Below are positions 3,965-60,732 of a stretch of 64,000 nt of DNA, piece by piece (position 1 is the stretch's first letter; each line of letters starts with the position of its first letter). The position numbers were made by a program, and so were the translations under genes. The stretch is from the NCBI GenBank assembly GCA_026418615.1, contig JAOAAY010000004.1:32874-96873 (forward strand). Direction: 5' to 3'. This DNA comes from Candidatus Sumerlaeaceae bacterium. Its GTDB lineage: Bacteria; Sumerlaeota; Sumerlaeia; Sumerlaeales; Sumerlaeaceae. The notes under the pieces are model-generated. The model was not told the origin of the DNA. It worked only from the letters and a program-made list of their open reading frames with translations, and made no database searches.

Positions 3965-4023
3965 AACCCGCGGCGGATGCCATGCTCAACACAAAAGGCG
4001 CGCGGCGACTGCCTTTCGAGAAG

Positions 4024-33700: not shown

Positions 33701-34423
33701 TATTACGACCGCAAATTCGGCCCCCACACCGTCGCTCAGGGAACCATTCCGTCATCGGGTGTCGTGGAATTGCGCGGACTGGCCGGCGGCGTGGACAAAC
33801 CGACCTCTTTGAGCGAATTTCGCGGGAAATTTCCACCAACTTATACTTTTACCATCGGCGACGAGGATATTGGCTCCATCCAATTCGTCAAATTCGACCG
33901 CCAGAGCGGGCTGGTATTGCCGGCACATACCGATCAGGTGGCCGAATTCACTTTCCGGATGCCGCCGGTCGTCGGCGATATGGCACCGGATATCGAATTG
34001 ACCGAAGTTTTCGGCGACGGGACGCTGCGTCTCTCCGATCTGAGGGGACAGGTCGTTTTCCTCGATTTCTGGGCCACATGGTGCGGCCCGTGTCAGGATC
34101 CCATGAAGGCGCTCAACGAACTGGCTGCCAAACACAAGGATGACTGGGCAGGGAAGGTCGCGCTGATCGGGGCCAGCATTGACGACAACAAGGCTACGGT
34201 GCAGAAACATGTGAAAAAGAAAGGCTGGGAGAGCGTGCGCCAAATGTGGTGCGCCGTGCCGGATGGCTCAGGCGGCTGGGAAGCCCCGCAAGTGCGCACC
34301 TACGGCGTTCGCGGCGTGCCCACCGCCCTCCTCATTGATCAGCAGGGCCGCATCGTCTGGCGGGGGCATCCGGCCGGATTCAACAAAGAGGGCGAAATCA
34401 CACGGCTGCTGCAAAGCAAGTAA
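30722..34423 (+). CDS. giant secreted protein: three carboxypeptidase-regulatory-like/beta-sandwich repeat modules fused to a C-terminal TlpA/ResA-like thioredoxin domain
   Basis: Signal peptide MRQFVRISAWAAAVAVGMLAGLSAGA. Repeated modules containing VRVEVLDASGKPARGAEVAL-type starts and PGLLRGFVSEAF / SRFLRGFVSDVF / PGFLRGFQAGPF. C-terminal LRGQVVFLDFWATWCGPCQ thioredoxin-fold active site. Confidence 0.8.
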   Translation: MRQFVRISAWAAAVAVGMLAGLSAGARPAQGPDAAPKTVRVEVLDASGKPARGAEVALVTLRFGRFDGWREAPDGKAELAIPSDQNRFGLEESAQEEIAARAPGHAPATVKWNPESGSSATVRLKRGKRVNLEIKTADGRPLPEGVLPVVFAPKTRMQVLRPLVSAFGTTSGPLFHYYRVEQRAPGRFSVMVSPEDGPLTVYVDCPGLLRGFVSEAFEPKAWDKPLIVQLPAAGTVVATFEPKPAIRTDLTTFIVSLRGKDPMPAFYDLAAVVSGAGQPRRAVFPDLAPGQYDILAETGTGWVKRAWAGPETVAVQGGSSATVALKQRPALPALRVTDAATTGRPVRASAFVIRKQRDLFLLTGTGWVPVGPDGRIRFDMNQFAPRDPCEDASPWEYPVLVKAPGFAPKTLTLRTSTVATTEVIVPLERGNPIEIVLEPPEGMSIPEDLIPAVWFPPFGPILGLIPYTTSLQEVWAQSPVLDTERIAPGRYRVRITTGTEQLVVGVHHSRFLRGFVSDVFSLQDLSGSPLVLRLPKPGGLEVTADVREYLKTPGPKPDSIELTMMPAEAGDRMPINALGWQRRLGLQDGIASYQAADLAPGRYEVFITAAFDAGDDQRKTLSGNSELKVESGTTATATIALSDTTSRRGPRQFALPEVRVLSATGKPVTNARVFARRVGDEMNVTRGEAAGDGRYQCKPLVAWSMTTGEPLTSATAELLVTAPGHTATTMTLEVPTRQNLITVRLKKGREVELRLNPAEGTSIPETLEPIICDETMLGAAWIGLSPDSADKGFSLASVTRTGTGRYTFQVAKETSGLYVLIHEPGFLRGFQAGPFGADQVAKGRIEVDLPKPVTLTARFRPAKPDTPATYTACWAAIDRLVMLPGERFMYMKIAQTEAAGTTLEAQFSDLAPLDLRGRYSVEAGTGRLSERFGPPGQSYSDRAEADFQDGTSATVEILYEPFDRDMLKGPYTAVVTVLGRDDKPLDGKPFRVTYYDRKFGPHTVAQGTIPSSGVVELRGLAGGVDKPTSLSEFRGKFPPTYTFTIGDEDIGSIQFVKFDRQSGLVLPAHTDQVAEFTFRMPPVVGDMAPDIELTEVFGDGTLRLSDLRGQVVFLDFWATWCGPCQDPMKALNELAAKHKDDWAGKVALIGASIDDNKATVQKHVKKKGWESVRQMWCAVPDGSGGWEAPQVRTYGVRGVPTALLIDQQGRIVWRGHPAGFNKEGEITRLLQSK

Positions 34424-34449
34424 ACATCTTGATCAAGGGGGTAGAGACC

Positions 34450-36384
34450 ATGCGAAAGTCTCACAGAAACCTGCTGCTGGCCGCGCTGGCGACACTCGCG
34501 ATCCTGACGATCGCACCAGTCGCCGACGCCAATGAGCCTTCGGGTGACCCATCGGCTCAGGTTCACCCGTTGCTCGCCCACATGCCAGAACGGTTCAGAC
34601 GGACGGCGGAAGTCGTCCCAATGTACGCTCCGCCGCTGATGGTTGTTGCCGCTGATGACGGGTTGCCGGTCACCAGCGCCTCGCTGGCGCTCATGTCCGA
34701 CTCCGGTCCGTTCGAAAACACTTCGGCGACACATGAAGGCAGGGGGCGCTACCGGTTCGCTCCGCTGGAACAGATCCGGTCCAAATCGAGGACGATGACC
34801 ACACAGTCCCTCTCCTTGTTAGTCACGGCACCAGGGTTCGTGCCGGAGACGACCTCGATCGTGCTCAATGAAAGGGCGCCCCTGCCGGGCGAGATGACTG
34901 TCCGCCTCGGCCGGGGGCGTCCCGTCACGCTGGAGATCACCCGCGAGGACGGGCAGCCGCTGCCCCAAACCTTGGAACCCATCATAGCCGACCGGGACAC
35001 GCTGGAGGCCATTTGGTGCACGCTCGGATGGCAGACCGGCCCCTTGCGTTTTGGTTTGTATCCCGTGCGGCGCATGGCCCCGAACCGCTGGGAGTTTGGC
35101 GCCAAACCCGGGCAGCATGAGGTTTTTGTGATCGTGGACGAACCGGGGCTGTTGCGGCACTTCGTGGCCGGGCCGTTGAATGTGGAGGACGGCACAACGG
35201 CCTCCCTCATAGTGCGCCTGCCGAAGGCTTGTGCAATCACCGCACGGTTTCGCCCCGCGGAGGGTGTCGCCCGGCCAGCCTACCGCCGATGCACACTGGC
35301 GGTGACGCGCTCTGTCGATGTGCCGGGCGGCAAACCATCAAACTACGGAACCACCGTGGCCTCGTTCACTGGCGAAGGACCCACGGTAGAGCATGTGTTT
35401 GACGATCTGGCCCCGCCCACGGACGACTCTGGCTACTGGGTGCAAGCCATGACAGATCCGCACCCCGCTGAAGGGCTCGACGGGAAATACGCTTTCTCCG
35501 GCGGCGATTCCCCGGATTTTGGCAACGGGACCTCAGCCACCGTGGAAATCCTGTACAAGCCACTCAGCATTCGTCAGGTGCAGGGCGGGCTGACGGCCGT
35601 CGTCCGGGTGACGAATGCAAAAGGCGAGCCGGCAGCCGGCAAACCGTTTGAACTCCTGTGGCACCCCCGCAACTATCCCGAGGTTACGCTGACCTCGGGC
35701 ACCATCCCGACATCCGGGGTTGTGGAATTTCCGGGTTTGGGGGGCGCACCGGAAAAAGTCATGACAATAGCCGAAGCCCAAAAATCCGGATGGGAGCCAG
35801 CCCATCTGGAGTTTGTCCTCGACGGGGAAAGCGCGGGAATGATACGGTTTTTCCAGGTGGATGAGAAGGCGGGCGTTGTCCGGCCGGCGGTTGATGACAA
35901 CCGGCGCGTGTTCGAGTTTCGAGTTCCGCTGCGACCGGGCGACGAGACGCCAGATATCGAGTTGACTGACCTCGCAGACGGCCGGGTGTTCCGGCTCTCC
36001 GATTTGCGCGACCAGGTGATCTATCTCGATTTCTGGGCGACCTGGTGCGGGCCCTGCCAGCGACCTATGCATGAACTGGACGATCTCGCCCGACGCCGCG
36101 CGGCCGAATGGACGGGCAAGGTGTCGCTCATCGGGGTGAGCATAGACGAGACGACAGAGGTCGTCGTGCGGCATCTGGAGAAAAACGGTTGGACTGCGGC
36201 ACGGCAGGCTTGGTGCCATCCGGTTTCCGGCTCGACAGGCCGTGCGTCGGCGCAGGTCAAAGCCTTTCAAGTGACGGGATACCCGACGGCGTTTCTTATC
36301 GGCGCAGACGGAAAACTGATTTGGACGGGGTATCCCGGCCCCGAAATTGAAAGCATCATTGAGAAGGCCCTCGGCAGCCGCTGA
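34450..36384 (+). CDS. secreted paralog of upstream gene: one repeat module plus TlpA-like thioredoxin domain
   Basis: Signal peptide MRKSHRNLLLAALATLAILTIAPVADA. EPGLLRHFVAGPL and GTSATVEILYKP repeat the upstream protein, and LRDQVIYLDFWATWCGPCQ is the active site. The gene sits 26 nt downstream of the preceding gene, and an RBS AAGGGGG precedes the ATG. Confidence 0.8.
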   Translation: MRKSHRNLLLAALATLAILTIAPVADANEPSGDPSAQVHPLLAHMPERFRRTAEVVPMYAPPLMVVAADDGLPVTSASLALMSDSGPFENTSATHEGRGRYRFAPLEQIRSKSRTMTTQSLSLLVTAPGFVPETTSIVLNERAPLPGEMTVRLGRGRPVTLEITREDGQPLPQTLEPIIADRDTLEAIWCTLGWQTGPLRFGLYPVRRMAPNRWEFGAKPGQHEVFVIVDEPGLLRHFVAGPLNVEDGTTASLIVRLPKACAITARFRPAEGVARPAYRRCTLAVTRSVDVPGGKPSNYGTTVASFTGEGPTVEHVFDDLAPPTDDSGYWVQAMTDPHPAEGLDGKYAFSGGDSPDFGNGTSATVEILYKPLSIRQVQGGLTAVVRVTNAKGEPAAGKPFELLWHPRNYPEVTLTSGTIPTSGVVEFPGLGGAPEKVMTIAEAQKSGWEPAHLEFVLDGESAGMIRFFQVDEKAGVVRPAVDDNRRVFEFRVPLRPGDETPDIELTDLADGRVFRLSDLRDQVIYLDFWATWCGPCQRPMHELDDLARRRAAEWTGKVSLIGVSIDETTEVVVRHLEKNGWTAARQAWCHPVSGSTGRASAQVKAFQVTGYPTAFLIGADGKLIWTGYPGPEIESIIEKALGSR

Positions 36385-41664: not shown

Positions 41665-42723
41665 TCAGTAGGCGCCGTACTGCCGGGCAAGGCTGAGGGC
41701 GCGCCGGTACTGGTCATAACTGACATTGGGCGGCACGCTGTGGTCGCTGTGAAAGATGTAGCCACCATGGCGCTTGGCGGCTTCCAATTTGGGAATAATC
41801 TCGCGCTCGAGAGCGGCCGGGTCCGGGTCGGCCATGGCGCGCGTGTCAATGTTGCCCATGAACGACAGACAGTCGCCATACTGGTTGACGAGTTGGCACA
41901 CATCCATGCCGGCCTTGACCTCGAGTGGCTGGAGGCAATCCACGCCAGCCTCGATCAGGTGGGGTATGAGCAGGTGGATATCCCCGTCGGTATGATAGAT
42001 GACCGGCGCGCCGCGCGCGTGGTGAAAAGAGCACAGCGCGCGGTCAGACTCCAGGATGGTCTCGCGGTAGAGTTTCGGCGAGAACAGCGGGCCGTTGCGG
42101 TAGGCCATGTCGTTGAAAAACCATGCCGCGTCAGGCTCGAAGCCCGCGGCAATCACCATTTCCGTCATCCTGAGGGTCAACTCGGCGACCGTCTCGACCA
42201 TCTCGCGGAACCAGCGCGGGTTCTCGATCATGATGACGAGCAGTTCCTCGGTCTTGATAAGGTTTTGCAGGTAATCAAAACCGATGACGGCGTTGAGAGT
42301 GACGCATTTGCCCTCGGAGCGGGCACGCTGGTAGCGGCTGCGCAGCGTGACCCAATCGCAGCGCGTGTAGTCGGGCTGGAGGCGCTCCTTCACACGCAGC
42401 CAGTCATCATAAGTTTTGACGCCCCAGTCAATGATTTCGGGTGTGCTGGCCAAAGAGCGCAAGTTGCGCCGGACGCCGCCGAAAGGCGTGGTCTCGACTA
42501 CATATTGGTCGTCGGCGTGAAGGGTTTTGATTTCGAACATCGGGGAGTTGTCAAACCAGATGCTGACGATCTCCCAACCGAAATGGTCTTCGGGGGAAAT
42601 CCCGGCCGGGTATCCCTCGCGTTCCCAACGGCGCATCGTCTCGACCCACACAGAATCGTGGATGGGGACGCGATCGGCCTTGTCGCGCCTGAGTGCCCTC
42701 AATACGCGTTCGCGGCTATCCAC
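41665..42723 (-). CDS. uroporphyrinogen decarboxylase (URO-D) family protein, MtaA-like paralog 3
   Basis: 352 aa, URO-D family composition (…VIYHTDGDIHLLIPHLIEAGVDCLQPLE…GYIFHSDHSVPPNVSYDQY…). Co-linear similarity with the ORF at 29336. Confidence 0.7.
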   Translation of the reverse strand: MDSRERVLRALRRDKADRVPIHDSVWVETMRRWEREGYPAGISPEDHFGWEIVSIWFDNSPMFEIKTLHADDQYVVETTPFGGVRRNLRSLASTPEIIDWGVKTYDDWLRVKERLQPDYTRCDWVTLRSRYQRARSEGKCVTLNAVIGFDYLQNLIKTEELLVIMIENPRWFREMVETVAELTLRMTEMVIAAGFEPDAAWFFNDMAYRNGPLFSPKLYRETILESDRALCSFHHARGAPVIYHTDGDIHLLIPHLIEAGVDCLQPLEVKAGMDVCQLVNQYGDCLSFMGNIDTRAMADPDPAALEREIIPKLEAAKRHGGYIFHSDHSVPPNVSYDQYRRALSLARQYGAY

Positions 42724-48453: not shown

Positions 48454-51144
48454 TTAGGTCGCCTGGCGAGTCTTGCGCCGTTTGGGCGCTTTTTTCGGAC
48501 CGGCAGCCGCCTTCGCCGCGATCAATTCCGCCGCCTGCTCGGCAGTCAGAGTTTCCGAATTTGTCGTTTTGGGCAGCGTAGCGTTGACCTTGCCGTCGGT
48601 GACATAGGGGCCGTAGCGTCCCTCCATCAGTTTGATCCCGCCGGGAAACTCCTTGATAGATTTCTGCGCCGCGGCCCGCCGTCCGCGCGGTGCCTTGGGC
48701 GCTGCGAGGAGTTCCAGAGCCCGCTCGAGCGTCACCGTGTAAGGACTCTCGCCCGCCGGTAGCGAACGGAACTCTTGGCCGTGCTGGACATACGGACCCC
48801 ACCGGCCTTTGTTGGCCAGGACCGGTTCGCCCGACTCAGGATGGCGACCCAGTTCCCGCGGCAGGCTCAGCAATTGCAAAGCCTGCTCGAGGGTGATGGT
48901 CTCCGCCGTCATGCCCGGCTCGAGACTGGCGCGGCGCGGCTTAGGCGCCTTGCGGTCACCTTTGGCCGGGTTGTCGCCCACTTGCACATACGCCCCGTAT
49001 CGGCCTGACAAGACATAAACTGGAAGCCCGGTCGCGGGATCCTCGCCGAGGCGCCGAGGCCCCTCGGCCTTCTGCCGGATCAGTTCGAGCGCAGACTCGA
49101 GGTTGAAGTCCGCGGGGGCCACCTCCGGCGGAATGTCCGCGAGGGTTCCGTTGCCATTGTCGCCGACCACCACATACGGGCCGTACTTGCCCACTCGGAT
49201 CCGAACAGGCTGGGAAGTTACCGAGTCCACCCCCAGCACGATCTCCGGCCGCTCGATTTCCTGCTGCTTCGTCTCGACAAGCGTTTCGAGGCCCGGCTCG
49301 TCCGGCGTGCCGCGATAAAATTCCCGGATGTGCTCCACCCACGACAGATCGCCGTTGGCGATGTTGTCGAGTTCCTCCTCCATGCGCGCCGTGAAGCGCA
49401 GGTCCACATAATGCGGAAAATGCTCGCGCAGCAATTGCGTCACCGTCATGGCCGTGAAGGTCGGCACGAGTTGGCGCGACTTGTTGAGGAAGACATAGCC
49501 GCGGTCCTGAATCGTGCTGATGATTGAAGCGTAGGTGGAGGGGCGGCCGATGCCCTCCTCCTCGAGTTTTTTCACCAGCGAGGCTTCCGTATAACGCGGC
49601 GGCGGGGTGGTTTCGTGCCGCTTCGCCGCAACTCCGACCAGCCACGCTTCATTGGTCGCGCGCGCCTGAGACTCGTCGCTGTAAACTTTTTCGCCCACCT
49701 TGAGGTCGGGAAGAATGACCTCTTTGTCGCCGAGGTCGGCGGCCGGATCGTCGCTGCCCTCCACATAGGCCCGGAGGAAACCCGGAAAAAGGATTTTTTT
49801 TCCAGACGCGGTAAACACGGCCGCGCCTGTCGCACCGCCCGTCTCGGCGGTCAACTCCACGGTCGTCCGCAGCAGCCGCGCGTCGGGCATCTGGCTGGCC
49901 ACGGTGCGCTTCCAAATGAGATCGTACAGCGCCAGGTCCTCGCGGCTCAGAAACGGAGCGACATCGCTGGGCCGGCGGCTGATTTCCGTGGGCCGGATGG
50001 CCTCGTGCGCCTCCTGCGCGTTGGCGGTCTTGGTGCGGTATTGGCGCGGGCTGCAGGCATACTCGGGGCCGTAAATATCCGCGATGACCCGCTGCGCCTC
50101 GCCCAAGGCTTTGTTGGAAAGCGTCACGGAGTCCGTGCGCATGTAGGTGATGAGCCCCACCCGCTCGCCGTCGCCGAGGTCTACGCCCTCGTATAATTTC
50201 TGCGCAATCTGCATGGTGCGCTTTGCGCCAAAGCCAAGTTTGCGGTTGGCCTCCTGCTGGAGTGTGGAGGTCGTGAACGGCGGATTGGGCCGCTGGGTGG
50301 TCGGCGTTTCCTCCACGCGCGTCACGGTCCACGGCAGCGCGCCGCGCACCGCCCCGCAAAGGTCGCCCGCCGCTTCCGCCTCGAGCAAGTAGGTCCGGCT
50401 GCCCTCGCTCAGGCGCCCCGTCGAGGGGTCAAAGTCTTTGCCGGTCGCCAGCCGCTGCCCCCCGAGCGACACCAGTGTCGCCTTGAATGACCCGCCCGCC
50501 GTGGCCACTTCCGCCTCGAGGTCCCAGTACTCCGCGCTGCGGAAGCGCGCCCGCTCCTCCTCGCGCTCGGCAATCAGCCGCACGGCGACACTCTGCACGC
50601 GGCCGGCACTCAGACCCGGCTGCACCTTGCGCCAAAGCAGCGGGGAAAGTTTGTAACCAAACAACCGGTCCAGCACGCGCCGGCCCTCCTGAGCGCGCAC
50701 GAGATTCTCGTCAATCTCGCGCGGCGACCGAAGCGCTTCTTCAATGGCCTCGCGCGTAATCTCGTGAAACACAATCCGCCGCACGGGCACCTTCGGCTTG
50801 AGCACCTCGCACAAATGCCAACTGATTGATTCGCCCTCGCGATCCTCGTCGGTCGCCAGCAGCAGTTCCTTCGCCTCCTTGAGCGCCGATTTCAGGTGCG
50901 CGATGTGCCGTTTCTTGTCAGGAGGAATAACATAAACCGGTTGAAACTGGTCGTCAATGTTCACCGCAAAGTCGGCCCACGGCTGCGATTTGTACTCCGC
51001 CGGCAGTTCCTTGCGGCTCGACGGGAGGTCGCGCACATGGCCGTACGAGGCCTCGACCCGGTAATCCTTCCCGAGAAACCGGCTGATGGTCTTGGCTTTG
51101 GCAGGCGACTCGACAATGACGAGAGAAGTCAAAACGCTGGGCAC
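48454..51144 (-). CDS. topA: DNA topoisomerase I
   Basis: Toprim N-terminus LVIVESPAKAKTISRFLGKDYRVEASYGHVRDLP, an active-site Tyr region, and four C-terminal GRYGPYV-type repeats with no Cys. The tail is Lys-rich (KAPKRRKTRQAT). Confidence 0.92.
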   Translation of the reverse strand: MPSVLTSLVIVESPAKAKTISRFLGKDYRVEASYGHVRDLPSSRKELPAEYKSQPWADFAVNIDDQFQPVYVIPPDKKRHIAHLKSALKEAKELLLATDEDREGESISWHLCEVLKPKVPVRRIVFHEITREAIEEALRSPREIDENLVRAQEGRRVLDRLFGYKLSPLLWRKVQPGLSAGRVQSVAVRLIAEREEERARFRSAEYWDLEAEVATAGGSFKATLVSLGGQRLATGKDFDPSTGRLSEGSRTYLLEAEAAGDLCGAVRGALPWTVTRVEETPTTQRPNPPFTTSTLQQEANRKLGFGAKRTMQIAQKLYEGVDLGDGERVGLITYMRTDSVTLSNKALGEAQRVIADIYGPEYACSPRQYRTKTANAQEAHEAIRPTEISRRPSDVAPFLSREDLALYDLIWKRTVASQMPDARLLRTTVELTAETGGATGAAVFTASGKKILFPGFLRAYVEGSDDPAADLGDKEVILPDLKVGEKVYSDESQARATNEAWLVGVAAKRHETTPPPRYTEASLVKKLEEEGIGRPSTYASIISTIQDRGYVFLNKSRQLVPTFTAMTVTQLLREHFPHYVDLRFTARMEEELDNIANGDLSWVEHIREFYRGTPDEPGLETLVETKQQEIERPEIVLGVDSVTSQPVRIRVGKYGPYVVVGDNGNGTLADIPPEVAPADFNLESALELIRQKAEGPRRLGEDPATGLPVYVLSGRYGAYVQVGDNPAKGDRKAPKPRRASLEPGMTAETITLEQALQLLSLPRELGRHPESGEPVLANKGRWGPYVQHGQEFRSLPAGESPYTVTLERALELLAAPKAPRGRRAAAQKSIKEFPGGIKLMEGRYGPYVTDGKVNATLPKTTNSETLTAEQAAELIAAKAAAGPKKAPKRRKTRQAT

Positions 51145-53472: not shown

Positions 53473-53538
53473 GCGGGATGACATACTCGAACTCCCGCCG
53501 CTCGAAGCGCAGATCGTCCAGCGGCCCGGTGCCGCCCG

Positions 53539-53964
53539 TCATGGCGCTTCGAGGCTTGCCTTGAGTTCCTGAACGATTGGCATGACCGCGTCCGGGGCAA
53601 GGGACTTGAAAGGCGCCTGTCCGGCGAACACTTCGGGAACTCCCGGCAATACCATGGCGCGTTCAACCAAGTGTCGCGTCGAGCCGGAGGATTCATCGTC
53701 ACCTCTGGCCATCGACAGCACAACAAGGCGGGCTGGACGAGCGACAGGGTCTCGTCCTGGCTCGCTATCAACCCACTCATATCGGGCCTCGCGGGGCACT
53801 ATGAAACCGTCCGCGGCCAGCGTACCGCTGGTAGTAATCGACAAGCGGACATTACCGGAAAGGCTGGTAAACTCCCCGCTGGACAAGATACGATTACTCT
53901 GAATTGTTAGGCTGAGGCTGCCCTTCAATGCCTTTGAGTACACACCGGCCTCGTCGGAATCCAC
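53539..53964 (-). CDS. hypothetical protein
   Basis: 141 aa ORF in a lower-GC islet, co-directional with the two upstream secreted-protein genes. No motif recognised. Confidence 0.3.
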   Translation of the reverse strand: MDSDEAGVYSKALKGSLSLTIQSNRILSSGEFTSLSGNVRLSITTSGTLAADGFIVPREARYEWVDSEPGRDPVARPARLVVLSMARGDDESSGSTRHLVERAMVLPGVPEVFAGQAPFKSLAPDAVMPIVQELKASLEAP

Positions 53965-54018
53965 GAACAGCGTGCCTCTATGATCACGCGAAACCCGTGT
54001 GTGCGATGTAAGGGATGC

Positions 54019-54594
54019 CTAGGCAAGGAAGCCGCCTAGAATCATATCACGGAAGCCGCTGAATTCCATGTGCGAGTCGCCGGGCGGATCGTTTGCAACA
54101 AACAGGGACTCTGTGTAGCCGCAAGGCTCTTCGGAGGCTGAAACGCAGTGCTTTCGTAGCAGCGTGACAGAACGACCGATACCTGCTACCCGCGAAGCGA
54201 ACCTTGCGACCGGTCTCGGATGATACGCATTGCCCTCCGGCACATTGCCGGGAAAGTAAGACGCGACGGCCGCCCGTCGCGACGGAGTGGTGTCGTAGTC
54301 ATAGGCCGCCGCGAGCCAATAGTCGTCGCCCTTCCATGTTAGGCGGACCCGCCGTGTTTGCATGCCTGTGACAGGGGGAGGGGTATCTACAGTCTCTAAG
54401 TCACGAAGCACGAACAGGGATTCGCACGCAGACGACCCGTCTGGGTGAATCCGATCCTCAATAGCCTGCATCACCTCGTTGAGTTCGCTGGGTGCGGCGG
54501 AAACCGGCATAACACCCGTGTACAGGAGAAACCACGACACGGCAGTCACAACATGTAAACGGGAGCGCATGTCATCTACTTTTCGCTTAAACAT
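54019..54594 (-). CDS. hypothetical secreted protein
   Basis: ORF with an internal Met start MFKRKVDDMRSRLHVVTAVSWFLLYTGVMPVSAAPSE (signal peptide). Downstream of the Cys-rich repeat protein gene. Confidence 0.4.
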   Translation of the reverse strand: MFKRKVDDMRSRLHVVTAVSWFLLYTGVMPVSAAPSELNEVMQAIEDRIHPDGSSACESLFVLRDLETVDTPPPVTGMQTRRVRLTWKGDDYWLAAAYDYDTTPSRRAAVASYFPGNVPEGNAYHPRPVARFASRVAGIGRSVTLLRKHCVSASEEPCGYTESLFVANDPPGDSHMEFSGFRDMILGGFLA

Positions 54595-54650
54595 GGAATT
54601 AGGCCTCCAAACTTGAAGTAGGGTCCACCAACCAGGTTGACGGACGGGCA

Positions 54651-55442
54651 TTAATGAATAAGACAGGTTCCATAGATCATCTGTGCAGTACACGGACCGG
54701 GCGATCCACCCGAACAGCCACTATAGTATGTATCAATCATGCTGTACGAGACCGTTGTCCCGCCGTTACCACTGCAGGCGCTATTGCGATAGACATATTG
54801 CACCGCCAGTTCCGCGTTTTCGTGTGCGGCCAATGTGCTTGCATACAGATCAACGGTGCCGTCCGGGTTGGTGGCACACGACGCCGAAAAGTACGAGGTG
54901 ACAGAACACTTGATTGTGTCGCATGGCGAGCCTTCGTTGATGTTTCCGCCAAGTTCCCCGTGATAGCACTCATGCACAGTGACCGATACGGAATGGCCGC
55001 TACTATAGCACCGGTAACACGACATGTCCGCGGGGTCCAATAGGCAACACTCGTTCTTTGGAATGATCGTATCAATGCAGCACTTGTGAGTCTGCAGTGA
55101 GAACAACAGACCTGCACAGCAGTCTTGTGTTGCCAAATTGTATACGGTGCCACCGCAGCATCCCTGTGTGGCTTTGTTGAAAACCACTCCAAGGCAGCAT
55201 CCTTGTGTGCTTGGATCGAATGGGACTCCGTTGCAGCAACTGCCAATGCAAGGGGTCGGAGTAACGGGAGGATCAGCGCCGATTCCCATCCGGGGTGCGG
55301 GTATGGCTTCCGCCGCGCAGGAGCGCCCGCCGCCATGCTGCTTTGAACTCACGGGAAACGACAGGGCCAACAGCAGTGCGAGAGTCAGTGCCAGAAGCAC
55401 GAGGTTCTGTGCGGATGAAGATGCGTGTTTCATTGCGTGCAC
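54651..55442 (-). CDS. secreted cysteine-rich protein with tandem 13-aa CC-x-G-x-x-F-x-x-x-T-Q-G repeats
   Basis: Signal peptide MKHASSSAQNLVLLALTLALLLALSFPVSS. Repeats CCNGVPFDPSTQG / CCLGVVFNKATQG / CCGGTVYNLATQD / CCAGLLFSLQTHK / CCIDTIIPKNE are also visible as DNA-level repeats near 55030-55250. 27 Cys in total. Confidence 0.55.
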   Translation of the reverse strand: MHAMKHASSSAQNLVLLALTLALLLALSFPVSSKQHGGGRSCAAEAIPAPRMGIGADPPVTPTPCIGSCCNGVPFDPSTQGCCLGVVFNKATQGCCGGTVYNLATQDCCAGLLFSLQTHKCCIDTIIPKNECCLLDPADMSCYRCYSSGHSVSVTVHECYHGELGGNINEGSPCDTIKCSVTSYFSASCATNPDGTVDLYASTLAAHENAELAVQYVYRNSACSGNGGTTVSYSMIDTYYSGCSGGSPGPCTAQMIYGTCLIH

Positions 55443-55915
55443 TCCTCCCGCGGTGACCGATTGACTGGCGGTGCCGGTGGCACATAGCGGTGCAGGCTTG
55501 GGTGGTCACGAAAGATCTCACGCATCTCCGCATGCAGCGCAGATGTGAAATCCCTGCCAAGATCGAAATGGTAGGCCACGCTGTTCTTCCATCCGTAGGC
55601 CTTCCACAGGGCATCCCGGTCCGGGTCGCCCTGGATGGGCCTGCCGACCTTGCGCGCGACGAAGACGGCCGCCTTAGGGCCGTGCGAAGGACACAATCAC
55701 GGGGGGGAGACAAACCATTTAAGATCTCCCATGCGGTGCTGCTTCTGCAGGGCGCAAATACCACACAACCGGAAACAAACCCGTCCACAACCGGCCGGTG
55801 CTGTCACGACATAACGACAATCGCAAATCACTCTGCGCTAACAGGCCGTCGGCACGCTGGAATGGCTGGTCGCTTGGGCAGATCCAGTGCCTACCAGATG
55901 TAACATATGGATCGC

Positions 55916-56686
55916 TTATTGAGGTTTGAGGCCAATAAACAGGTAATAGGGCACGCGGGCAAGAGGGAGGTAGGGCACAGCGGCGCGGTTTTCAAGGAGG
56001 CTCACCGGCTCAAAGCGTCGCAGCAGATAAGGCAGGTGGTCGGGCGACGGGAACACATTGTCGCCGCCAAACCACGCAGGCCAGAAGTGGCGCGTGAGCC
56101 AGCCGTGACGGGCCATGCCGGGAGCGGCTGGATGCTTGCGCGAGACATAAAAGTCTACCACGCCGATGTGTCCGCCCGGTCGCAGCACGCGCCACGCATG
56201 ATCAACCGCGGCGAACCAGTCCGGAATCATCGTGAGCGAGTAACTAAAGGTGACGACATCCGCCGCCCCTTCGGCAGGAACAAACTCGGTGGCGTCGGCC
56301 TCCACGGCTTCCACATGGGTCCAGCCGCGCTGCGCGATGCGTCGGCGCGCAATGGCTAGCAGCGACGGGGCGAGATCCACGATGTAGAATTTCCTCAGTG
56401 CGCCGATGCGCTCGCCGAGTCGCTCCGCATTGGCCCCCGTGCCGCCGCCGAGATCCAGCCACACCCCACCCGCGGGCACCGGTAGAGCCGCCCACAGTTC
56501 GTCACGCCCGCGCAACAGGCGCTCGCGAAATGTGTCGTAACCCTCGGCCTGTCCGCGGTAAAAGTTGTCCAGTCTTTCCGCGTGGGTTGCCCCCCGGATG
56601 GGATGCAAGGCGAGGTGATAAAGAATGCGGAGGTCTGAAATTAGTCCCACGGGTCGGAACCTCCCTCCGCCCCGGCATGGAGCCAA
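55916..56686 (-). CDS. class I SAM-dependent methyltransferase (BtaB-like candidate)
   Basis: Motif I VWLDLGGGTGANAERL and motif post-II PGGHIGVVDFYVS. It lies 242 bp downstream of the DUF3419-like gene on the same strand. Confidence 0.65.
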   Translation of the reverse strand: MAPCRGGGRFRPVGLISDLRILYHLALHPIRGATHAERLDNFYRGQAEGYDTFRERLLRGRDELWAALPVPAGGVWLDLGGGTGANAERLGERIGALRKFYIVDLAPSLLAIARRRIAQRGWTHVEAVEADATEFVPAEGAADVVTFSYSLTMIPDWFAAVDHAWRVLRPGGHIGVVDFYVSRKHPAAPGMARHGWLTRHFWPAWFGGDNVFPSPDHLPYLLRRFEPVSLLENRAAVPYLPLARVPYYLFIGLKPQ

Positions 56687-56928
56687 GGGCCAAGGCCCGA
56701 CCGGACGCTCAAAGGCGGCGACACCGCGAAACGGTCAGCAACACATGGACACATGACAGCCCGTTTCCCGCCCGCCGGTATGCGCTGATCATGGGCTGTC
56801 ATCCGGTTTTCCTTGCCCCAGCCATCCGACACGGTCTTGGTGCCTTCTTGTCTTCGCCTGAGGATGTGACCCGGCCTCGTTAGGAGCCTGTCCGGGCCTC
56901 TGCTGAGGGACCGTGCCATCGGAACGGA

Positions 56929-58125
56929 TCACGCCGTCGCGAGGTCGGCGATATAGAAACTGCCGTAGGTGTGGACCCGGTCGCGGGCGTGGAGGTTGGC
57001 AGCAAGGTCGTGATGATAGGTGAGCAGTTCGCCAACCTGAGCCTCGCCGCGCGCCGTGCGAACGCGCAGCGGATCCACAAAGTCCACGCGCAAGGCCCCG
57101 CTGCGCCAGATGACGCGCGCGCCCGGAGCAGCGCGCCGGACGATGGCCTGCCATTCGCCCTGCAACAGATGTCGGCCGCGCGTGCTAAGCCAGTCCATGT
57201 GGTCCAGCAGCACGAACCGCGAGACCTGGATCTCGTTCTGCTCGAGGAAGCCCTGCACGGTATTGGTGTGGACGCTTATGCGCCCGCCGAGGCCGGCCTT
57301 CAGTCGGGCAAAGCCCTCGGCCGTCAGGTACTCCGGGCAGCAGTCGCGCGTGTAGTGACCGGTCAGGTACACGCGCCAGAAATAATTATCTTGGAACGGC
57401 AGCCGCGCAAAGACGGCCTCGACGCATTCCTCGATGAAATGCACGATGCCGCCGTAGTGGCGTTCAACCTGCTGGATCTGGGGACGGGGGACACCGACGA
57501 GCGAAAGCGTGGTGCCGCGGCCCATAAGCCAGCGCATGAAGCGCGTCCAGAACGCATCGCGCAGGACGGTGTCGTAAATCTCGCGCTGCTCGTCCACGGT
57601 TTGGGCGGCCATGAGTGCGTCAATGCCCGGCCGGATGCGCGCCACTCGGTCTATGTAAAAGTTCATCAGCCGCGCGAACAGCCCCGTCGTACCGTGGAAA
57701 TAAAAACCCTTTCCGCGGCTGTCGACCCCAAAGTACCGGATCTTGCGGTCCCAATACTCGCGCGCTGCGGGGGGCAGGTCGGCGCGAATCCGCGACCGGT
57801 ACAGGGCGCGCCCCTCGTCGAGGCGCCCTTCGCCGAACATCCGGAAAAACTCGTCGTAGTCGAGTGTTCGGATGGCCGCCAGTTTCAGTTCGAGCAGCGC
57901 GTTCTGGCGCGGGTTCATGTCCACGGCAAACACATGGCTCGGGCCGCACAACGCGTAGTCGAGGGCGTTGCAGCCAGCCGAGGTGATGACAAGCACCGTG
58001 TCCTCGGGGCCGAGATCCAGCGCCACGCGGTCGAGCCGCGGATCTTCCCAGCAAGTGTTGTAAACCAAATTATTACCGTGGACAAGCCGGAATCCCTGTC
58101 CGCCGAGCCAGTCTAAAAACGACAT
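56929..58125 (-). CDS. DUF3419-like protein (candidate BtaA, S-adenosylmethionine:diacylglycerol 3-amino-3-carboxypropyltransferase)
   Basis: 399 aa from the Met at 58125 (a GGAG RBS lies upstream). N-terminal region [40 protein letters not shown] and C-terminal LLDHMDWL resemble the BtaA/DUF3419 family as I recall it. The assignment is an inference. Confidence 0.5.
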
Positions 58126-58415
58126 GCACTGCTCCGGGTGCGTGAACTGTGATGCTGGTACAGCCGGCGCCCCCCACCCATGAAGTGACGCGCTGGCGCC
58201 CATGTGGCACATCGCCCCCACCGGACGCAACGGGGAAGAACGGTTGACCCGCCCGCGCCGCGGCGGCAAGGGTGGCCGCGTGGTGACGCCAATTTCCCCA
58301 TGCGGACACAAAGACGCCAGACGCCACGGCGGAGCCGGAGTTCCATGCGCCGGCCCCCTTGTCCCGGCGTCTCTTGGCCTCGGCGGAAAGCAGCCCTGTC
58401 ACGGAGGCAGCGCCT

Positions 58416-59393
58416 ATGCTGCTTGAGCACCGCGTGGCCGTGGTCATCCCGTGCTACCGGGTGGAGCGCCATGTGGCGGCCGTCATTGCAGGGCTGCCGG
58501 ACTGGGTGGACACCGTCGTGGCAGTGGACGACGCCAGCCCCGACGGGACAGGGGCCGTTTTGGACGGCCTCGCGGGGCAACGCGTGAGCGTCATCCACCG
58601 CGCCCGCAATGGCGGCGTCGGCGCCGCCATGGCGGACGGCTTTCGCCGTGCGCTGGAACTGGGGGCGGATATCATCGTCAAAGTTGACGGTGACGGCCAG
58701 ATGGATACCTCGCGTCTGGCCGACCTCGTGGAGCCCATCGCCACCGACGCGGCGGACTATGCCAAGGCCAATCGCTTCCTCCACACACGCGAACTGGGCC
58801 AAATGCCACCCGCGCGGCTGATTGGCAACATCGCTCTCACCTTCCTCACCAAACTGGCCAGCGGCTACTGGCATGTGTTTGACCCGCAAAACGGCTATCT
58901 CGCCATTCATGCCCAATACCTGCGGTTGCTCGATCTCGACCGGCTGGCTACTCGCCGTTACTTCTTCGAGAACGAGATGCTCATCCAACTCAATGTTGAG
59001 CAGGCGCGCGTGCTGGATGTCCCGATGCCAGCCCAGTACGGATCCGAAGAGTCGAGCCTGCGCATCGGGCGTGTGCTCACCTATTTTCCGCCGAATTTGG
59101 TCCGCGGGTTTTTCTGGCGTTTATGGCAACGCCATGTCATGCGCGATTTTTCCGTGGTCGTCCCCCTCTATCTGATCGGCAGTATCCTGTTTGTTTTCGG
59201 CTTCGTGTTCGGGCTGTATGTGTGGGTGCGGGCGCTGCGGGAGGGGGTTCCGGCCACTACGGGCACGGTGATGCTGTCCGTTCTGCCGTTCGTCGTCGGC
59301 GTGCAAATGCTGCTGCAGGGCTTGTTGTTCGAAGTGCTCCAATCGCCGCGGGCCAGTCAGCCACCGCGCCGCAGCCCCAAGGCACGCCGCTAA
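58416..59393 (+). CDS. glycosyltransferase family 2, polyprenyl-phosphate sugar transferase type (ArnC/GtrB/DPM1-like)
   Basis: VAVVIPCYRVERHV...VVAVDDASPDGT (DxD region), DGDGQMD, and two C-terminal TM helices as in ArnC/GtrB. GGAGG RBS. Confidence 0.8.
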   Translation: MLLEHRVAVVIPCYRVERHVAAVIAGLPDWVDTVVAVDDASPDGTGAVLDGLAGQRVSVIHRARNGGVGAAMADGFRRALELGADIIVKVDGDGQMDTSRLADLVEPIATDAADYAKANRFLHTRELGQMPPARLIGNIALTFLTKLASGYWHVFDPQNGYLAIHAQYLRLLDLDRLATRRYFFENEMLIQLNVEQARVLDVPMPAQYGSEESSLRIGRVLTYFPPNLVRGFFWRLWQRHVMRDFSVVVPLYLIGSILFVFGFVFGLYVWVRALREGVPATTGTVMLSVLPFVVGVQMLLQGLLFEVLQSPRASQPPRRSPKARR

Positions 59394-59401
59394 CGAGGCG
59401 G

Positions 59402-59818
59402 CTATTTTCGCAGGACGAGGTACACTCCCACAGAAATCAGCACGACACCCACCCATTGCGCCAGCGTGACATTTTCCTTCAGCGCCACCCGCGCAATGAT
59501 CAGCCACGGCACATAAGTGATGGCCAGCATCGGCATGGCTTGGGACAGGTCGAGCCGCGACAGCACGGCGATCCAAAGCAAAAAACCGATTCCCACCAGC
59601 AGGCCGCCCGCAATGACCCGCAGGTTGGTATACGCATGCAGCATCCAATCAAAACCCGAATGGTTGGCCACTTGCACCTGGTTCAGACCTGCTTTAATCA
59701 GTGTTTGGCCAGTGAAACCCAGTGCGGCTGTGCAGCAAAAAATGAAAAGGGTCAGTATCATCCGGTGCTTCCAAAAGGGGATGTGCTGAATCTCGCTCGT
59801 CACGGCGTCACCCTGCAA
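59402..59818 (-). CDS. small four-TM DMT/SMR-like membrane protein (ArnE/ArnF-like flippase subunit candidate)
   Basis: About 120-138 aa, four predicted TM helices, sequence FTGQTLIKAGLNQ...VIAGGLLVGIGFLLWIAVLSRLDLSQAMPMLAITYV reminiscent of EamA-half/ArnE. Convergent with the ArnC-like GT2 gene. Confidence 0.5.
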   Translation of the reverse strand: MQGDAVTSEIQHIPFWKHRMILTLFIFCCTAALGFTGQTLIKAGLNQVQVANHSGFDWMLHAYTNLRVIAGGLLVGIGFLLWIAVLSRLDLSQAMPMLAITYVPWLIIARVALKENVTLAQWVGVVLISVGVYLVLRK

Positions 59819-60732
59819 AGCACCATCAGGGTGGGGCTGCGGCGAATGAGGCTCTCAAAAAGGGGAATCGGCGCGAGGGCAATCACCAACAAGAGGTACA
59901 GCGCACGGGCTGCAAGGCCCAAGGCTCCGGTCCAGCGGCGCATGTAAAAGGGTTGCATGCGCGGAAACAGCGAGTTCACGAGGATGGCCGGCCCGTGTTT
60001 GAGCGCCACATGATGAATGCGCAGCGGCTCGAACCCGCACCGGCGCAGCAGCCGGCACAGCGACGATGGCGTATAGTAAACAAGGTGACGCGGCGGAATA
60101 TACACGAACCATCGCGGACCAAACATCCGGCGCTGCAGACAGTGGATGCTCGGCAGCATCAAACACAACAGGCCGCCGGGTTTGAGCAGCCGCCGGATGC
60201 GCTCTAGCGCGTCCGCAGGGCGCGGCAGGTGCTCGATTACATGTGACATCAGGACGAGGTCGAACGCGCGGTCCGGAAAATCGTGCGAATAAACATCGCC
60301 GATCCGGGCGTCCACACCGGGAACCCGCCTGCGGGTGGCCTCAACCCCCGCCTCCGACGACTCAAGGCCGGAACACTCGCACCCCCACTTGTGCAAAAAC
60401 CACAGCGCATCGCCGCCACCGCAGCCGATATCGAGCACGCGGGTTCCGGGGCGGATCCAGCGTTTCAGGCGGACGAGTTCCGACCAGTTAAGAAAATCCT
60501 TGTACGCGGCCTCGAAGCGCGCCGCGAGAGATACGCTGCCACCCCCTCCAGAACCCCAGTAAACTTCGAAAAACGGGTCAACATCGTCCGGCCCGGGCAT
60601 CGGATCCACAAACTGCCCTCCGCACGAGTCGCAGCCCATGATGGTGAAGGTGCCCGAGACCAGCCCCACCGGGTCGGTCATGGTGAAAACAGGGCGCGAG
60701 ACAGTCTCGGTGCAAATGGGGCACGCAATCAC
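59800..60732 (-). CDS. class I SAM-dependent methyltransferase with N-terminal zinc-ribbon
   Basis: CPICTETV...CDSCGGQF Cys4, then VLDIGCGGGDALWFL (motif I) and DLVLMSHVIEHL. Confidence 0.7.
   Translation of the reverse strand: MIACPICTETVSRPVFTMTDPVGLVSGTFTIMGCDSCGGQFVDPMPGPDDVDPFFEVYWGSGGGGSVSLAARFEAAYKDFLNWSELVRLKRWIRPGTRVLDIGCGGGDALWFLHKWGCECSGLESSEAGVEATRRRVPGVDARIGDVYSHDFPDRAFDLVLMSHVIEHLPRPADALERIRRLLKPGGLLCLMLPSIHCLQRRMFGPRWFVYIPPRHLVYYTPSSLCRLLRRCGFEPLRIHHVALKHGPAILVNSLFPRMQPFYMRRWTGALGLAARALYLLLVIALAPIPLFESLIRRSPTLMVLCRVTP

What the first reader, a model, noticed from the sequence alone, without database searches (positions are those of the whole stretch)
55916..58125. Candidate btaA-btaB betaine-lipid (DGTS) synthesis pair
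A ~400-aa protein with an N-terminal ...[37 protein letters not shown]... region and a later LLDHMDWL segment resembles the DUF3419/BtaA family. It is followed on the same strand by a ~250-aa class I SAM methyltransferase, which is the order btaA then btaB in characterised operons.

If this is correct, the organism can make a phosphorus-free betaine lipid. That would be notable for this lineage, and it would fit with the PmtA-like methyltransferase at 17743.
Basis: inference. Interest (0 to 1): 0.55.

Follow-up and report, generated by a model that had tools for sequence, protein, structure and literature searches.

The report
btaA–btaB betaine-lipid gene pair
The two genes are a well-supported btaA–btaB pair, the two enzymes that build the phosphorus-free membrane lipid DGTS, in an uncultured Sumerlaeota bacterium; this is an ordinary member of a known system, and public annotation already half-names it.

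Summary

**The genes (minus strand)**
- 58125..56929 encodes a 398-aa full-length DUF3419/BtaA protein (Pfam 404 bits, E=6.6e-121).
- After a 278-nt spacer, 56650..55916 encodes a 244-aa class I SAM methyltransferase of the BtaB type.

**Evidence that this is btaA–btaB**
- The pair is syntenic in 73 of 80 species-representative relatives (Planctomycetota, Hydrogenedentota, Sumerlaeia).
- Both genes match the two halves of fused eukaryotic BTA1 betaine-lipid synthases. The BtaB half is 45% identical (E=7e-75).
- All 34 residues invariant across rhizobial BtaA, Bacteroidota BtaA and BTA1 are kept.
- Both genes are under strong purifying selection (dN/dS 0.06 and 0.09).
- The AlphaFold model has a class I SAM-binding core.

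**Caveats**
- Identity to genetically characterised rhizobial BtaA/BtaB is only 28–31%.
- I found no lipid data for this clade in the searchable literature.
- There is no E. coli-type Pho box and no plcP gene in the window.
- The 'PmtA-like' gene at 17743 scores better as OlsG-like, below both curated cut-offs.

**Novelty**
NCBI already calls the protein 'BtaA family protein', so this is a new member of a known kind and of modest interest. A conserved ~60-bp block upstream (58215–58275) is the only unexplained feature.

The parts
56929..58125 (-). btaA: S-adenosylmethionine:diacylglycerol 3-amino-3-carboxypropyl transferase homologue (398 aa, DUF3419)
58132..58135 (-). Shine-Dalgarno-like GGAG, 7 nt upstream of the btaA ATG
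   Evidence: Read directly from the sequence. Conserved in L004, L089 and L090.
58215..58275 (.). Conserved non-coding block in the btaA / GT2 divergent intergenic region; candidate promoter or operator of unknown specificity
   Evidence: 80-95% identity to L004/L090, while the surrounding intergenic DNA is 30-55% identical and dS of the genes is 0.8-1.1. Unique in the window and found only in Sumerlaeaceae relatives. No RNA-structure signal, z=+0.66.
56651..56928 (-). 278-nt btaA-btaB spacer, apparently neutral
   Evidence: Not conserved against L004/L090, with indels that are not multiples of 3. No Rfam match at E<=1. No gene annotated between MCX7717155 and MCX7717154. Spacers of about 0-465 nt are seen in relatives.
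55916..56650 (-). btaB: diacylglycerylhomoserine N-methyltransferase homologue (244 aa, GTG start)
   Evidence: Class I SAM MTase Pfam families. Homologues named btaB by JGI. 45% identical to the BtaB half of fused P0323, E=7e-75. 31% identical to S. meliloti BtaB, E=1e-23. Shared motifs. dN/dS 0.090.

Best explanation
This is a two-gene DGTS (diacylglyceryl-N,N,N-trimethylhomoserine) synthesis module in a Candidatus Sumerlaeaceae bacterium.

Proposed mechanism:
- BtaA (58125..56929) binds S-adenosylmethionine in a class I Rossmann-type pocket. The pocket is formed by [11 protein letters not shown] at strand 1 and D69/N71 at the end of strand 2.
- Instead of the methyl group, BtaA transfers the 3-amino-3-carboxypropyl (homoserine) moiety of SAM to the free sn-3 hydroxyl of diacylglycerol. 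This gives diacylglycerylhomoserine.
- BtaB (56650..55916) then methylates the amino group three times with SAM, giving the zwitterionic, phosphorus-free betaine lipid DGTS. DGTS can stand in for phosphatidylcholine-type phospholipids.

Shown here: family membership of both proteins, their conserved pairing, their fusion in eukaryotic BTA1, retention of conserved residues, the fold, and purifying selection.

Inferred from established knowledge of BtaA/BtaB (Klug & Benning 2001; Riekhof et al. 2005; reviewed in PMC3972451 and PMC10685587): the chemistry, the DAG substrate and the DGTS product.

Speculative: induction by phosphate limitation, and transcription of the two genes from one promoter across the 278-nt spacer.
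For: - DUF3419 at 404.5 bits, full length.
- The nearest homologues are named BtaA family or SAM-diacylglycerol 3-amino-3-carboxypropyl transferase.
- MTase homologues are named diacylglycerolhomoserine N-methyltransferase.
- A BtaB-type gene lies directly downstream on the same strand in 73 of 80 species-representative loci from three phyla.
- Close Sumerlaeaceae contigs L004, L089 and L090 keep the pair and the spacer.
- Fusion evidence: fused 600-790-aa BTA1-type proteins match BtaA at 167-203 bits. They come from the fern Adiantum, the alga Picocystis, the fungus Coemansia, a JGI 'betaine lipid synthase' and the eukaryote-proteome member P0323. The BtaB half of P0323 matches the MTase at 45% identity.
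- The rhizobial btaA-btaB locus, syntenic between S. meliloti and R. leguminosarum, aligns over the full length. BtaA is 28% identical (E=4e-42) and BtaB 31% (E=1e-23).
- DUF3419 paralogues that lack an MTase neighbour score only 75-79 bits.
- 34 invariant BtaA/BTA1 residues are kept, and BtaB motifs are kept.
- dN/dS is 0.06 and 0.09.
- In Kolteria novifilia Pan216 the orthologous pair sits between a PlcP-like metallophosphoesterase and a glycosyltransferase. That is the classic phosphate-stress lipid-remodelling arrangement (PMC4796936).
Against: - Identity to the only bacterial enzymes with genetic or biochemical proof (alpha-proteobacteria) is low, at 28-31%.
- No NCBIfam model names either protein specifically.
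- I found no paper in the searchable library reporting DGTS in Sumerlaeota or Planctomycetota cultures.
- No E. coli-type Pho box lies upstream, and no sigma-70 consensus promoter was found.
- No plcP, pst or pho genes are in the 64-kb window.
- The 278-nt spacer leaves co-transcription unproven.
- My NJ tree did not resolve deep relationships within DUF3419.
Confidence: 0.8

Rival explanations
1. The pair makes a related but non-canonical homoserine-derived lipid. Examples are the aminocarboxypropyl group placed on a backbone other than diacylglycerol (ether or monoacyl glycerol, a hydroxy-fatty-acid amide), or a product that is only partly methylated.
For: This Planctomycetota/Sumerlaeota/Hydrogenedentota clade is only 28-35% identical to any enzyme or fused synthase from organisms with known DGTS. 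No lipid analysis of the clade was found. The C-terminal third of this BtaB type (FYVSRK...PYYLFIG) differs from rhizobial BtaB and resembles only the eukaryotic domain.
Against: All family-invariant residues are retained. The eukaryotic BTA1 relatives that share the same BtaB C-terminal region belong to groups that make genuine DGTS (PMC10685587). The Pan216 context with PlcP, which releases DAG, fits a DAG acceptor.
Confidence: 0.12
2. The DUF3419 protein is a non-lipid SAM-dependent alkyl transferase, a tailoring enzyme of a small-molecule pathway, and its adjacency to a methyltransferase is incidental.
For: DUF3419 paralogues occur in clusters with KAS III, CoF synthetase, AMP-binding enzymes or fatty-acyl-AMP ligase/halogenase genes and have no BtaB neighbour. 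So Pfam membership alone does not prove BtaA function.
Against: Those paralogues score only 75-79 bits against the window protein, compared with 140-203 bits for BtaA/BTA1. The MTase adjacency is conserved in 73 of 80 relatives and is fixed as a fusion in eukaryotes. No biosynthetic-cluster genes flank the pair.
Confidence: 0.05
3. The genes are a recently transferred or decaying remnant that is not expressed as a functional pathway. The long spacer uncouples btaB from btaA.
For: There is a 278-nt non-conserved spacer. The closest named BtaA relatives outside the immediate group are Planctomycetota (66%) rather than Sumerlaeia (60%), whereas TopA from the same window is closest to Sumerlaeota. 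A variable low-GC region lies directly downstream.
Against: Both reading frames are intact. dN/dS is 0.06 and 0.09 at dS 0.8-1.1. The spacer arrangement and a conserved upstream block persist in two diverged Sumerlaeaceae lineages. GC content of the genes (0.647) is close to the window average (about 0.62). Spacers over 100 nt are common in relatives.
Confidence: 0.03

Closest known systems
BtaA/BtaB of Rhodobacter (Cereibacter) sphaeroides and Sinorhizobium meliloti: two-enzyme bacterial DGTS pathway, PhoB-regulated
   Same: Same two protein families, same gene order btaA then btaB on one strand, alignable over the full length, with shared WEDP, GCN, NYF, LLDxxDW and DR..Y residues in BtaA. 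BtaB shares the pre-motif-I segment, motif I GxGTGxN and SY(S/A)LxMxPxW.
   Different: Only 28% (BtaA) and 31% (BtaB) identity. The rhizobial genes overlap or abut (L003: 5125/5122), while here 278 nt separate them. BtaB here has a longer C-terminal region (FYVSRK...PYYLFIG) that rhizobial BtaB lacks. No Pho box of the known type was found. I could not obtain the R. sphaeroides sequences; the S. meliloti and R. leguminosarum orthologues served as proxies.
Eukaryotic bifunctional betaine lipid synthase BTA1: BtaB-BtaA order in Chlamydomonas, fungi and ferns; BtaA-BtaB order in marine algae
   Same: Both window proteins match the two domains. BtaA is 32-37% identical (167-203 bits). BtaB is 45% identical to the C-terminal domain of the BtaA-BtaB-ordered P0323, including the PYY(x)F(x)G C-terminus. 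A published phylogeny places planctomycete BtaA at the base of the marine-eukaryote clade (PMC10685587).
   Different: Here the proteins are separate polypeptides encoded by separate genes, and the organism is bacterial. None of the fused proteins I retrieved is itself the experimentally tested enzyme.
Planctomycetota btaA-btaB loci, e.g. Kolteria novifilia Pan216 (Metallophos/PlcP-like - btaA - IS - btaB - glycosyltransferase)
   Same: These are the closest sequence relatives outside the Sumerlaeaceae group (BtaA 55-66%, BtaB 52-69%), with the same gene order and a variable spacer.
   Different: The window has no PlcP-like or DAG-glycosyltransferase gene next to the pair. Its neighbours are instead a divergent GT2, an ArnE/F-like EamA protein and another methyltransferase. 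The host phylum also differs: TopA in the window is closest to Sumerlaeota.
DUF3419 paralogues in biosynthetic clusters (Rhizobium pMK-2, Roseinatronobacter plasmid, next to the cyanobacterial cly cluster)
   Same: Same Pfam family and presumably the same SAM-binding fold.
   Different: 23-27% identity (75-79 bits). They have no BtaB-type neighbour, and sit in a fatty-acid, AMP-ligase or CoF-synthetase context. The window protein is not of this type.
MccD and other class I-fold SAM aminocarboxypropyl transferases
   Different: There is no sequence relationship (8% identity). Ordinary methyltransferases score equally well. BtaA carries a roughly 200-residue helical insertion (about residues 72-282) absent from these enzymes. 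This is a mechanistic analogy, not membership.

Membership tests
BtaA (SAM:diacylglycerol 3-amino-3-carboxypropyl transferase; Pfam PF11899/DUF3419, KEGG btaA) | Full-length DUF3419 domain above the Pfam gathering score | tested here: met
   404.5 bits against a cut-off of 28.2; residues 18-393 match profile positions 8-383 of 385.
BtaA (SAM:diacylglycerol 3-amino-3-carboxypropyl transferase; Pfam PF11899/DUF3419, KEGG btaA) | Retention of residues invariant across rhizobial BtaA, Bacteroidota BtaA and eukaryotic BTA1 (WEDP, GCN SAM motif, D69/N71, NYF, LxDxxDW, R341, DR...Y) | tested here: met
   34 invariant columns in the 8-sequence alignment, all present in the window protein.
BtaA (SAM:diacylglycerol 3-amino-3-carboxypropyl transferase; Pfam PF11899/DUF3419, KEGG btaA) | Genetic linkage to a BtaB-type N-methyltransferase (adjacent gene or fusion) | tested here: met
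   The MTase lies 278 nt downstream on the same strand. The pair is conserved in 73 of 80 relatives. Fused homologues exist in both domain orders.
BtaA (SAM:diacylglycerol 3-amino-3-carboxypropyl transferase; Pfam PF11899/DUF3419, KEGG btaA) | Closer to proven or linked BtaA/BTA1 than to DUF3419 paralogues that lack a BtaB partner | tested here: met
   140 bits (R. leguminosarum BtaA) and 167-203 bits (BTA1-type), against 75-79 bits for paralogues. The deep NJ topology was unresolved, so this rests on scores and linkage, not on a tree.
BtaA (SAM:diacylglycerol 3-amino-3-carboxypropyl transferase; Pfam PF11899/DUF3419, KEGG btaA) | Class I (Rossmann-type) SAM-binding fold | tested here: met
BtaA (SAM:diacylglycerol 3-amino-3-carboxypropyl transferase; Pfam PF11899/DUF3419, KEGG btaA) | Curated equivalog model (NCBIfam) hit | tested here: inconclusive
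   No NCBIfam family matched at E<=0.01. NCBI nevertheless names the identical protein 'BtaA family protein', so the library used here appears to hold no BtaA model.
BtaA (SAM:diacylglycerol 3-amino-3-carboxypropyl transferase; Pfam PF11899/DUF3419, KEGG btaA) | Catalysis: DAG + SAM -> diacylglycerylhomoserine + methylthioadenosine | not testable with these tools
   Requires an enzyme assay or heterologous expression with lipid analysis.
BtaB (diacylglycerylhomoserine N-methyltransferase; KEGG btaB) | Class I SAM methyltransferase domain | tested here: met
   Ubie_methyltran, Methyltransf_25, _11, _12, _23 and _31 all above cut-off.
BtaB (diacylglycerylhomoserine N-methyltransferase; KEGG btaB) | BtaB-specific segment N-terminal to motif I (A..L/M..Y.....YD..R...L.GR) and the SY(S/A)LxMxPxW / LxPGG...DF motifs | tested here: met
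   Invariant in the alignment with S. meliloti, R. leguminosarum, Chondrinema, Pan216 and L004 BtaB. Also aligned in the fused P0323 and visible in Picocystis BTA1.
BtaB (diacylglycerylhomoserine N-methyltransferase; KEGG btaB) | Significant similarity to a genetically characterised BtaB | tested here: met
   31% identity over 214 aa, E=1e-23, to the S. meliloti BtaB orthologue encoded next to btaA in L001. btaAB function in S. meliloti is stated in PMC3972451.
BtaB (diacylglycerylhomoserine N-methyltransferase; KEGG btaB) | Three successive N-methylations of DGHS | not testable with these tools
   Requires biochemistry.
PhoB-controlled phosphate-stress lipid remodelling (PlcP + BtaAB, as in S. 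meliloti and Phaeobacter) | Pho box upstream of btaA | tested here: not met
   CTGTCATNNNNCTGTCAT with up to 3 mismatches has no site in 58126-58358. There are 2 matches in the whole window against 3.15 expected by chance. The PhoB site of this phylum is unknown, so regulation by phosphate is not excluded. A conserved block of unknown specificity exists at 58215-58275.
PhoB-controlled phosphate-stress lipid remodelling (PlcP + BtaAB, as in S. meliloti and Phaeobacter) | PlcP-type phospholipase C (DAG supplier) encoded nearby | tested here: not met
   No Metallophos protein among the window's called ORFs. Among the 80 relatives' loci it is present only next to btaA in Pan216 and L082. The rest of the genome could not be examined.

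The most novel reading that the evidence does not exclude
The Sumerlaeota/Planctomycetota/Hydrogenedentota-type BtaA+BtaB may be a distinct bacterial lineage of betaine-lipid synthases. It may be the nearest free-standing relative of the fused BtaA-BtaB synthase of marine algae, and may have been exchanged horizontally among these phyla. In Sumerlaeaceae it may be controlled by a lineage-specific operator (the conserved 60-bp block at 58215-58275) rather than a canonical Pho box. It may also make a product or use a lipid backbone that differs from classical DGTS.
Probability: 0.12. Interest if true: 0.45.

Novelty: new member of a known kind. Interest (0 to 1): 0.25.

Why it matters
If the pair is active, members of the uncultured phylum Sumerlaeota can replace phospholipids with a phosphorus-free betaine lipid. 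That fits the view of them as survivors in phosphorus-poor habitats (PMC8092238, PMC10866078). It also adds one more bacterial source for DGTS-type lipids, which environmental lipidomics usually attributes to algae. It does not change what is known about the pathway itself.

Tried and rejected
- Exact-sequence look-up of the window's BtaA in the contig index found nothing. The rest of the 192-kb MAG contig and genome could therefore not be searched for plcP, phoBR or pstS.
- The first literature query for btaA/btaB was swamped by Bioinformatics DOIs.
- Klug & Benning 2001 (PMC33312) is not held. The supplement of PMC10685587 has no sequences. R. sphaeroides BtaA/BtaB could therefore not be aligned directly. 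Rhizobial orthologues from PLSDB records were used instead.
- NCBIfam has no specific hit for either protein.
- A PDB sequence search found no solved relative.
- The Rfam scan of 55500-58700 at E<=1 found nothing, so there is no riboswitch in the 278-nt spacer.
- The spacer is not conserved between lineages. I rejected the 92-aa ORF spanning it (56919..56641) as a gene because the indels are not multiples of three.
- RNA folding of the btaA leader showed no excess stability, z=+0.66.
- The sigma-70 promoter scan found 0 sites, and terminator-like hits were at chance level.
- E. coli-type Pho box: nothing upstream. By eye I looked for sigma-54 (GG-N10-GC) and direct-repeat response-regulator motifs in the conserved block and found nothing convincing.
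- The first Biopython tree run timed out. The NJ tree with 200 bootstraps resolved only shallow clades, and some distances saturated. I do not use it for deep placement or to claim HGT.
Full report
**Observation.**
- The window has two same-strand ORFs on the minus strand at the reported coordinates.
- The first runs from ATG 58125 to TGA 56929 (398 aa). It contains the quoted strings [37 protein letters not shown] (residues 23-59) and LLDHMDWL (306-313).
- It matches Pfam DUF3419 (PF11899) end to end at 404.5 bits, E=6.6e-121.
- The second ends at 55916. The mechanical ORF starts at TTG 56686 (256 aa).
  - GTG 56650 (244 aa) is the likely start. It aligns with the ATG of the 84%-identical homologue in L004.
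  - It also matches the 244-aa NCBI protein MCX7717154.1.
- The second ORF carries only generic class I SAM-methyltransferase Pfam and NCBIfam matches.
- A 278-nt spacer (56651-56928) separates the genes.

**Organism.**
- The BtaA-like protein is 100% identical to MCX7717155.1, 'BtaA family protein [Candidatus Sumerlaeaceae bacterium]', on a 191,877-bp contig.
- Topoisomerase I at 48454-51144 serves as an independent marker. Its closest named relatives (58-66% identity) are Candidatus Sumerlaeota and Sumerlaeia bacteria. The lineage assignment is therefore not an artefact of this one gene.

**Is the pair a real pair?**
- A genome-contig scan returned 80 species-representative loci encoding relatives at 55-66% identity. 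Most are Planctomycetota, with two Hydrogenedentota (L023, L028) and one Candidatus Sumerlaeia MAG (L065).
- tblastn with the window's methyltransferase finds a 52-69% identical gene directly downstream on the same strand in 73 of the 80.
  - One of the seven exceptions ends 183 nt after btaA.
  - Estimated spacers range from overlap to 465 nt, median 60, plus 1311 nt in Pan216 where an IS element is inserted.
  - The 278-nt spacer here is long but within that range.
- Three metagenome contigs from close Sumerlaeaceae relatives keep the same local order: methyltransferase, EamA, divergent GT2, btaA, spacer, btaB.
  - L004 and L090 have BtaA at 92% and BtaB at 84% identity.
  - L089 is nearly identical to the window.
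- Between the window and L004, dN/dS is 0.063 (btaA) and 0.090 (btaB), at dS 0.77 and 1.10. Both genes are under strong purifying selection.

**Is it BtaA/BtaB rather than just DUF3419 plus any methyltransferase?** DUF3419 is not synonymous with BtaA. PLSDB plasmids carry paralogues at 23-27% identity (75-79 bits) that have no methyltransferase neighbour. They sit with KAS III, CoF synthetase, AMP-binding or PEP-utilising genes, and another paralogue flanks a cyanobacterial lactylate cluster. Four lines of evidence place the window proteins with true BtaA/BtaB.
1. *Rhizobial btaA-btaB locus.*
   - It was recovered from a 3.7-Mb S. meliloti record and from a syntenic R. leguminosarum plasmid.
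   - It aligns over the full length: BtaA 28% (E=4e-42, 140 bits) and BtaB 31% (E=1e-23).
   - The BtaB alignment includes the segment N-terminal to SAM motif I.
   - btaAB function and PhoB control in S. meliloti are summarised in PMC3972451.
2. *Fused homologues.*
   - An exhaustive profile-free search of 1.84 billion representatives found 2,834 relatives.
   - They include fused proteins of 600-790 aa in both domain orders.
   - Cluster look-ups identify these as eukaryotic BTA1-type proteins. Sources are Adiantum, Picocystis, Coemansia, a JGI 'betaine lipid synthase' and a eukaryote-proteome entry.
   - The window BtaA matches their DUF3419 domains at 32-37% identity (167-203 bits).
   - The window methyltransferase is 45% identical over all 242 aligned residues (E=7e-75) to the C-terminal domain of the BtaA-BtaB-ordered P0323. 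The match includes the C-terminal ...PYYxFxG region that rhizobial BtaB lacks.
   - This fusion links the two window genes functionally.
3. *Conserved residues.*
   - An alignment of the window protein with Pan216, Chondrinema (Bacteroidota), R. leguminosarum BtaA and four BTA1-type proteins has 34 invariant columns.
   - These include W26-E-D-P29, G51-C-N53, D69/N71, N247-Y-F249, L306/D308/D311-W312, R341 and D382-R383/Y387.
   - The BtaB alignment likewise keeps the pre-motif-I YD..R...L.GR, G.GTG.N, SY(S/A)L.M.P.W and L.PGG...DF.
4. *Independent annotation.* JGI labels many homologues of both proteins with the KEGG btaA and btaB names.

**Fold and mechanism.**
- An AlphaFold2 model built on 48 homologues has mean pLDDT 85.5 and pTM 0.88.
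- In the model, strand 1 (43-47) is followed by the GCN motif and strand 2 (64-69) ends in D69. This is the classical SAM-binding arrangement.
- A largely helical insertion of about 200 residues (roughly 72-282) lies between the halves of the Rossmann core. It has no solved counterpart, and I infer that it forms the lipid-acceptor site.
- The chemistry is taken from established work on the family (cited in PMC10685587 and PMC3972451). It was not shown here.
  - BtaA transfers the aminocarboxypropyl group of SAM to the DAG hydroxyl.
  - BtaB adds three N-methyl groups.

**Regulation and context.**
- No E. coli-type Pho box lies upstream. The pattern with up to 3 mismatches occurs twice in the window against 3.15 expected, and neither site is in 58126-58358.
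- No sigma-70 consensus promoter was found.
- The spacer has no Rfam match and is not conserved.
- A block at 58215-58275 in the divergent btaA/GT2 intergenic region is 80-95% identical between the two Sumerlaeaceae lineages. The flanking non-coding DNA is 30-55% identical.
  - The block is unique in the window.
  - It is absent from the other fetched loci.
  - It shows no RNA-structure signal.
  - It is a candidate operator or promoter of unknown specificity.
- The window holds no plcP, pst or pho genes.
- In Kolteria novifilia Pan216 the orthologous pair is flanked by a PlcP-like metallophosphoesterase and a glycosyltransferase. This matches the phosphate-stress arrangement described for marine bacteria (PMC4796936).

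The 190-aa methyltransferase at 17743-18315 scores best against the OlsG ornithine-lipid N-methyltransferase model (106 bits, cut-off 350). It scores second against Agrobacterium-type PmtA (68 bits, cut-off 250). It belongs to that lipid N-methyltransferase group but cannot be assigned to either enzyme.

**Novelty.**
- The two Sumerlaeota genome papers I could search discuss phosphorus scavenging but never mention betaine lipids or bta genes.
- I found no report of DGTS in Planctomycetota cultures.
- A published BTA1 phylogeny already includes planctomycete BtaA and places it at the base of the marine-eukaryote clade.
- NCBI already names this very protein 'BtaA family protein'.
- The finding is therefore correct but ordinary: a new member of a known system in a little-studied phylum.
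- The nearest named BtaA relatives are Planctomycetota (66%) rather than the other Sumerlaeia MAG (60%), which hints at horizontal exchange. My NJ tree does not resolve this.

Noticed in passing
window 58215-58275: A roughly 60-bp non-coding block (CCCTTGCCGCCG..GGGCGGGTCAAYCGTTCTTCCCCRTTGCGTC..) between btaA and the divergent GT2 gene is 80-95% conserved in two Sumerlaeaceae lineages. Neighbouring intergenic DNA and the btaA-btaB spacer have diverged to 30-55%. It is unique in the window and shows no RNA-fold signal. The binding factor or promoter type is unknown.
   Followed up: partly
window 17743-18315 (+): A 190-aa methyltransferase scores best against NCBIfam OlsG (ornithine lipid N-methyltransferase, 106 bits, cut-off 350) and second against PmtA (68 bits, cut-off 250).
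   Followed up: partly
window 58359-60732: GT2 glycosyltransferase (AglJ/PpgS-like, 58359-59393 +), a small EamA/ArnE-ArnF-like membrane protein (59402-59818 -) and a 310-aa methyltransferase with an N-terminal Cys-rich motif (59800-60732 -) lie next to btaA. The same trio sits beside btaAB in L004 and L089, but not in the Sumerlaeia MAG L065 or in Planctomycetota. It looks like a polyprenyl-phosphate-sugar module. No functional link to btaAB is shown.
   Followed up: partly
window about 53500-55900: A lower-GC stretch (0.57 against about 0.62) lies directly downstream of btaB. It encodes a 263-aa Cys-rich secreted-looking protein with Galaxin-like repeats (54651-55442 -) and a 224-aa protein with no Pfam match. 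The region downstream of btaB differs in L004 (RHS fragment) and L090, so it is variable.
   Followed up: no
window 18342-19514, 29336-30394, 41665-42723: Three separate URO-D (uroporphyrinogen decarboxylase / MtaA-like) family paralogues occur within one 64-kb window.
   Followed up: no
window 30722-36384 (+): Two tandem large proteins (1233 and 651 aa) have Pfam matches only in a C-terminal thioredoxin-like AhpC/TSA/Redoxin domain. The large N-terminal parts are unannotated.
   Followed up: no
L001 (CP090106.1, PLSDB): The record is labelled 'Sinorhizobium meliloti Ak57 plasmid pSymB' but is 3.72 Mb. It carries the same flanking genes as the btaA-btaB locus of L003 (PPi-PFK, LysE, SLT / GH25, murein transglycosylase, DMT). 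At that size it looks like the chromosome, mislabelled. btaA is split by a frameshift in this assembly (ORFs 3878-4618 and 4543-5127) and is not annotated.
   Followed up: partly
L005/L006 7352-8490 (Kolteria novifilia Pan216): An IS element (HTH_32 + DDE_3 transposase genes) is inserted between btaA and btaB. The cluster also contains a PlcP-like metallophosphoesterase and a GT28/GT1-type glycosyltransferase.
   Followed up: no
window 56929-58125 versus 48454-51144: The nearest named BtaA relatives outside the immediate group are Planctomycetota (up to 66%), while another Sumerlaeia MAG is at 60%. TopA from the same window is closest to Sumerlaeota (65-66%). This is compatible with horizontal exchange of btaAB among Planctomycetota, Hydrogenedentota and Sumerlaeota, but my tree does not resolve it.
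   Followed up: partly
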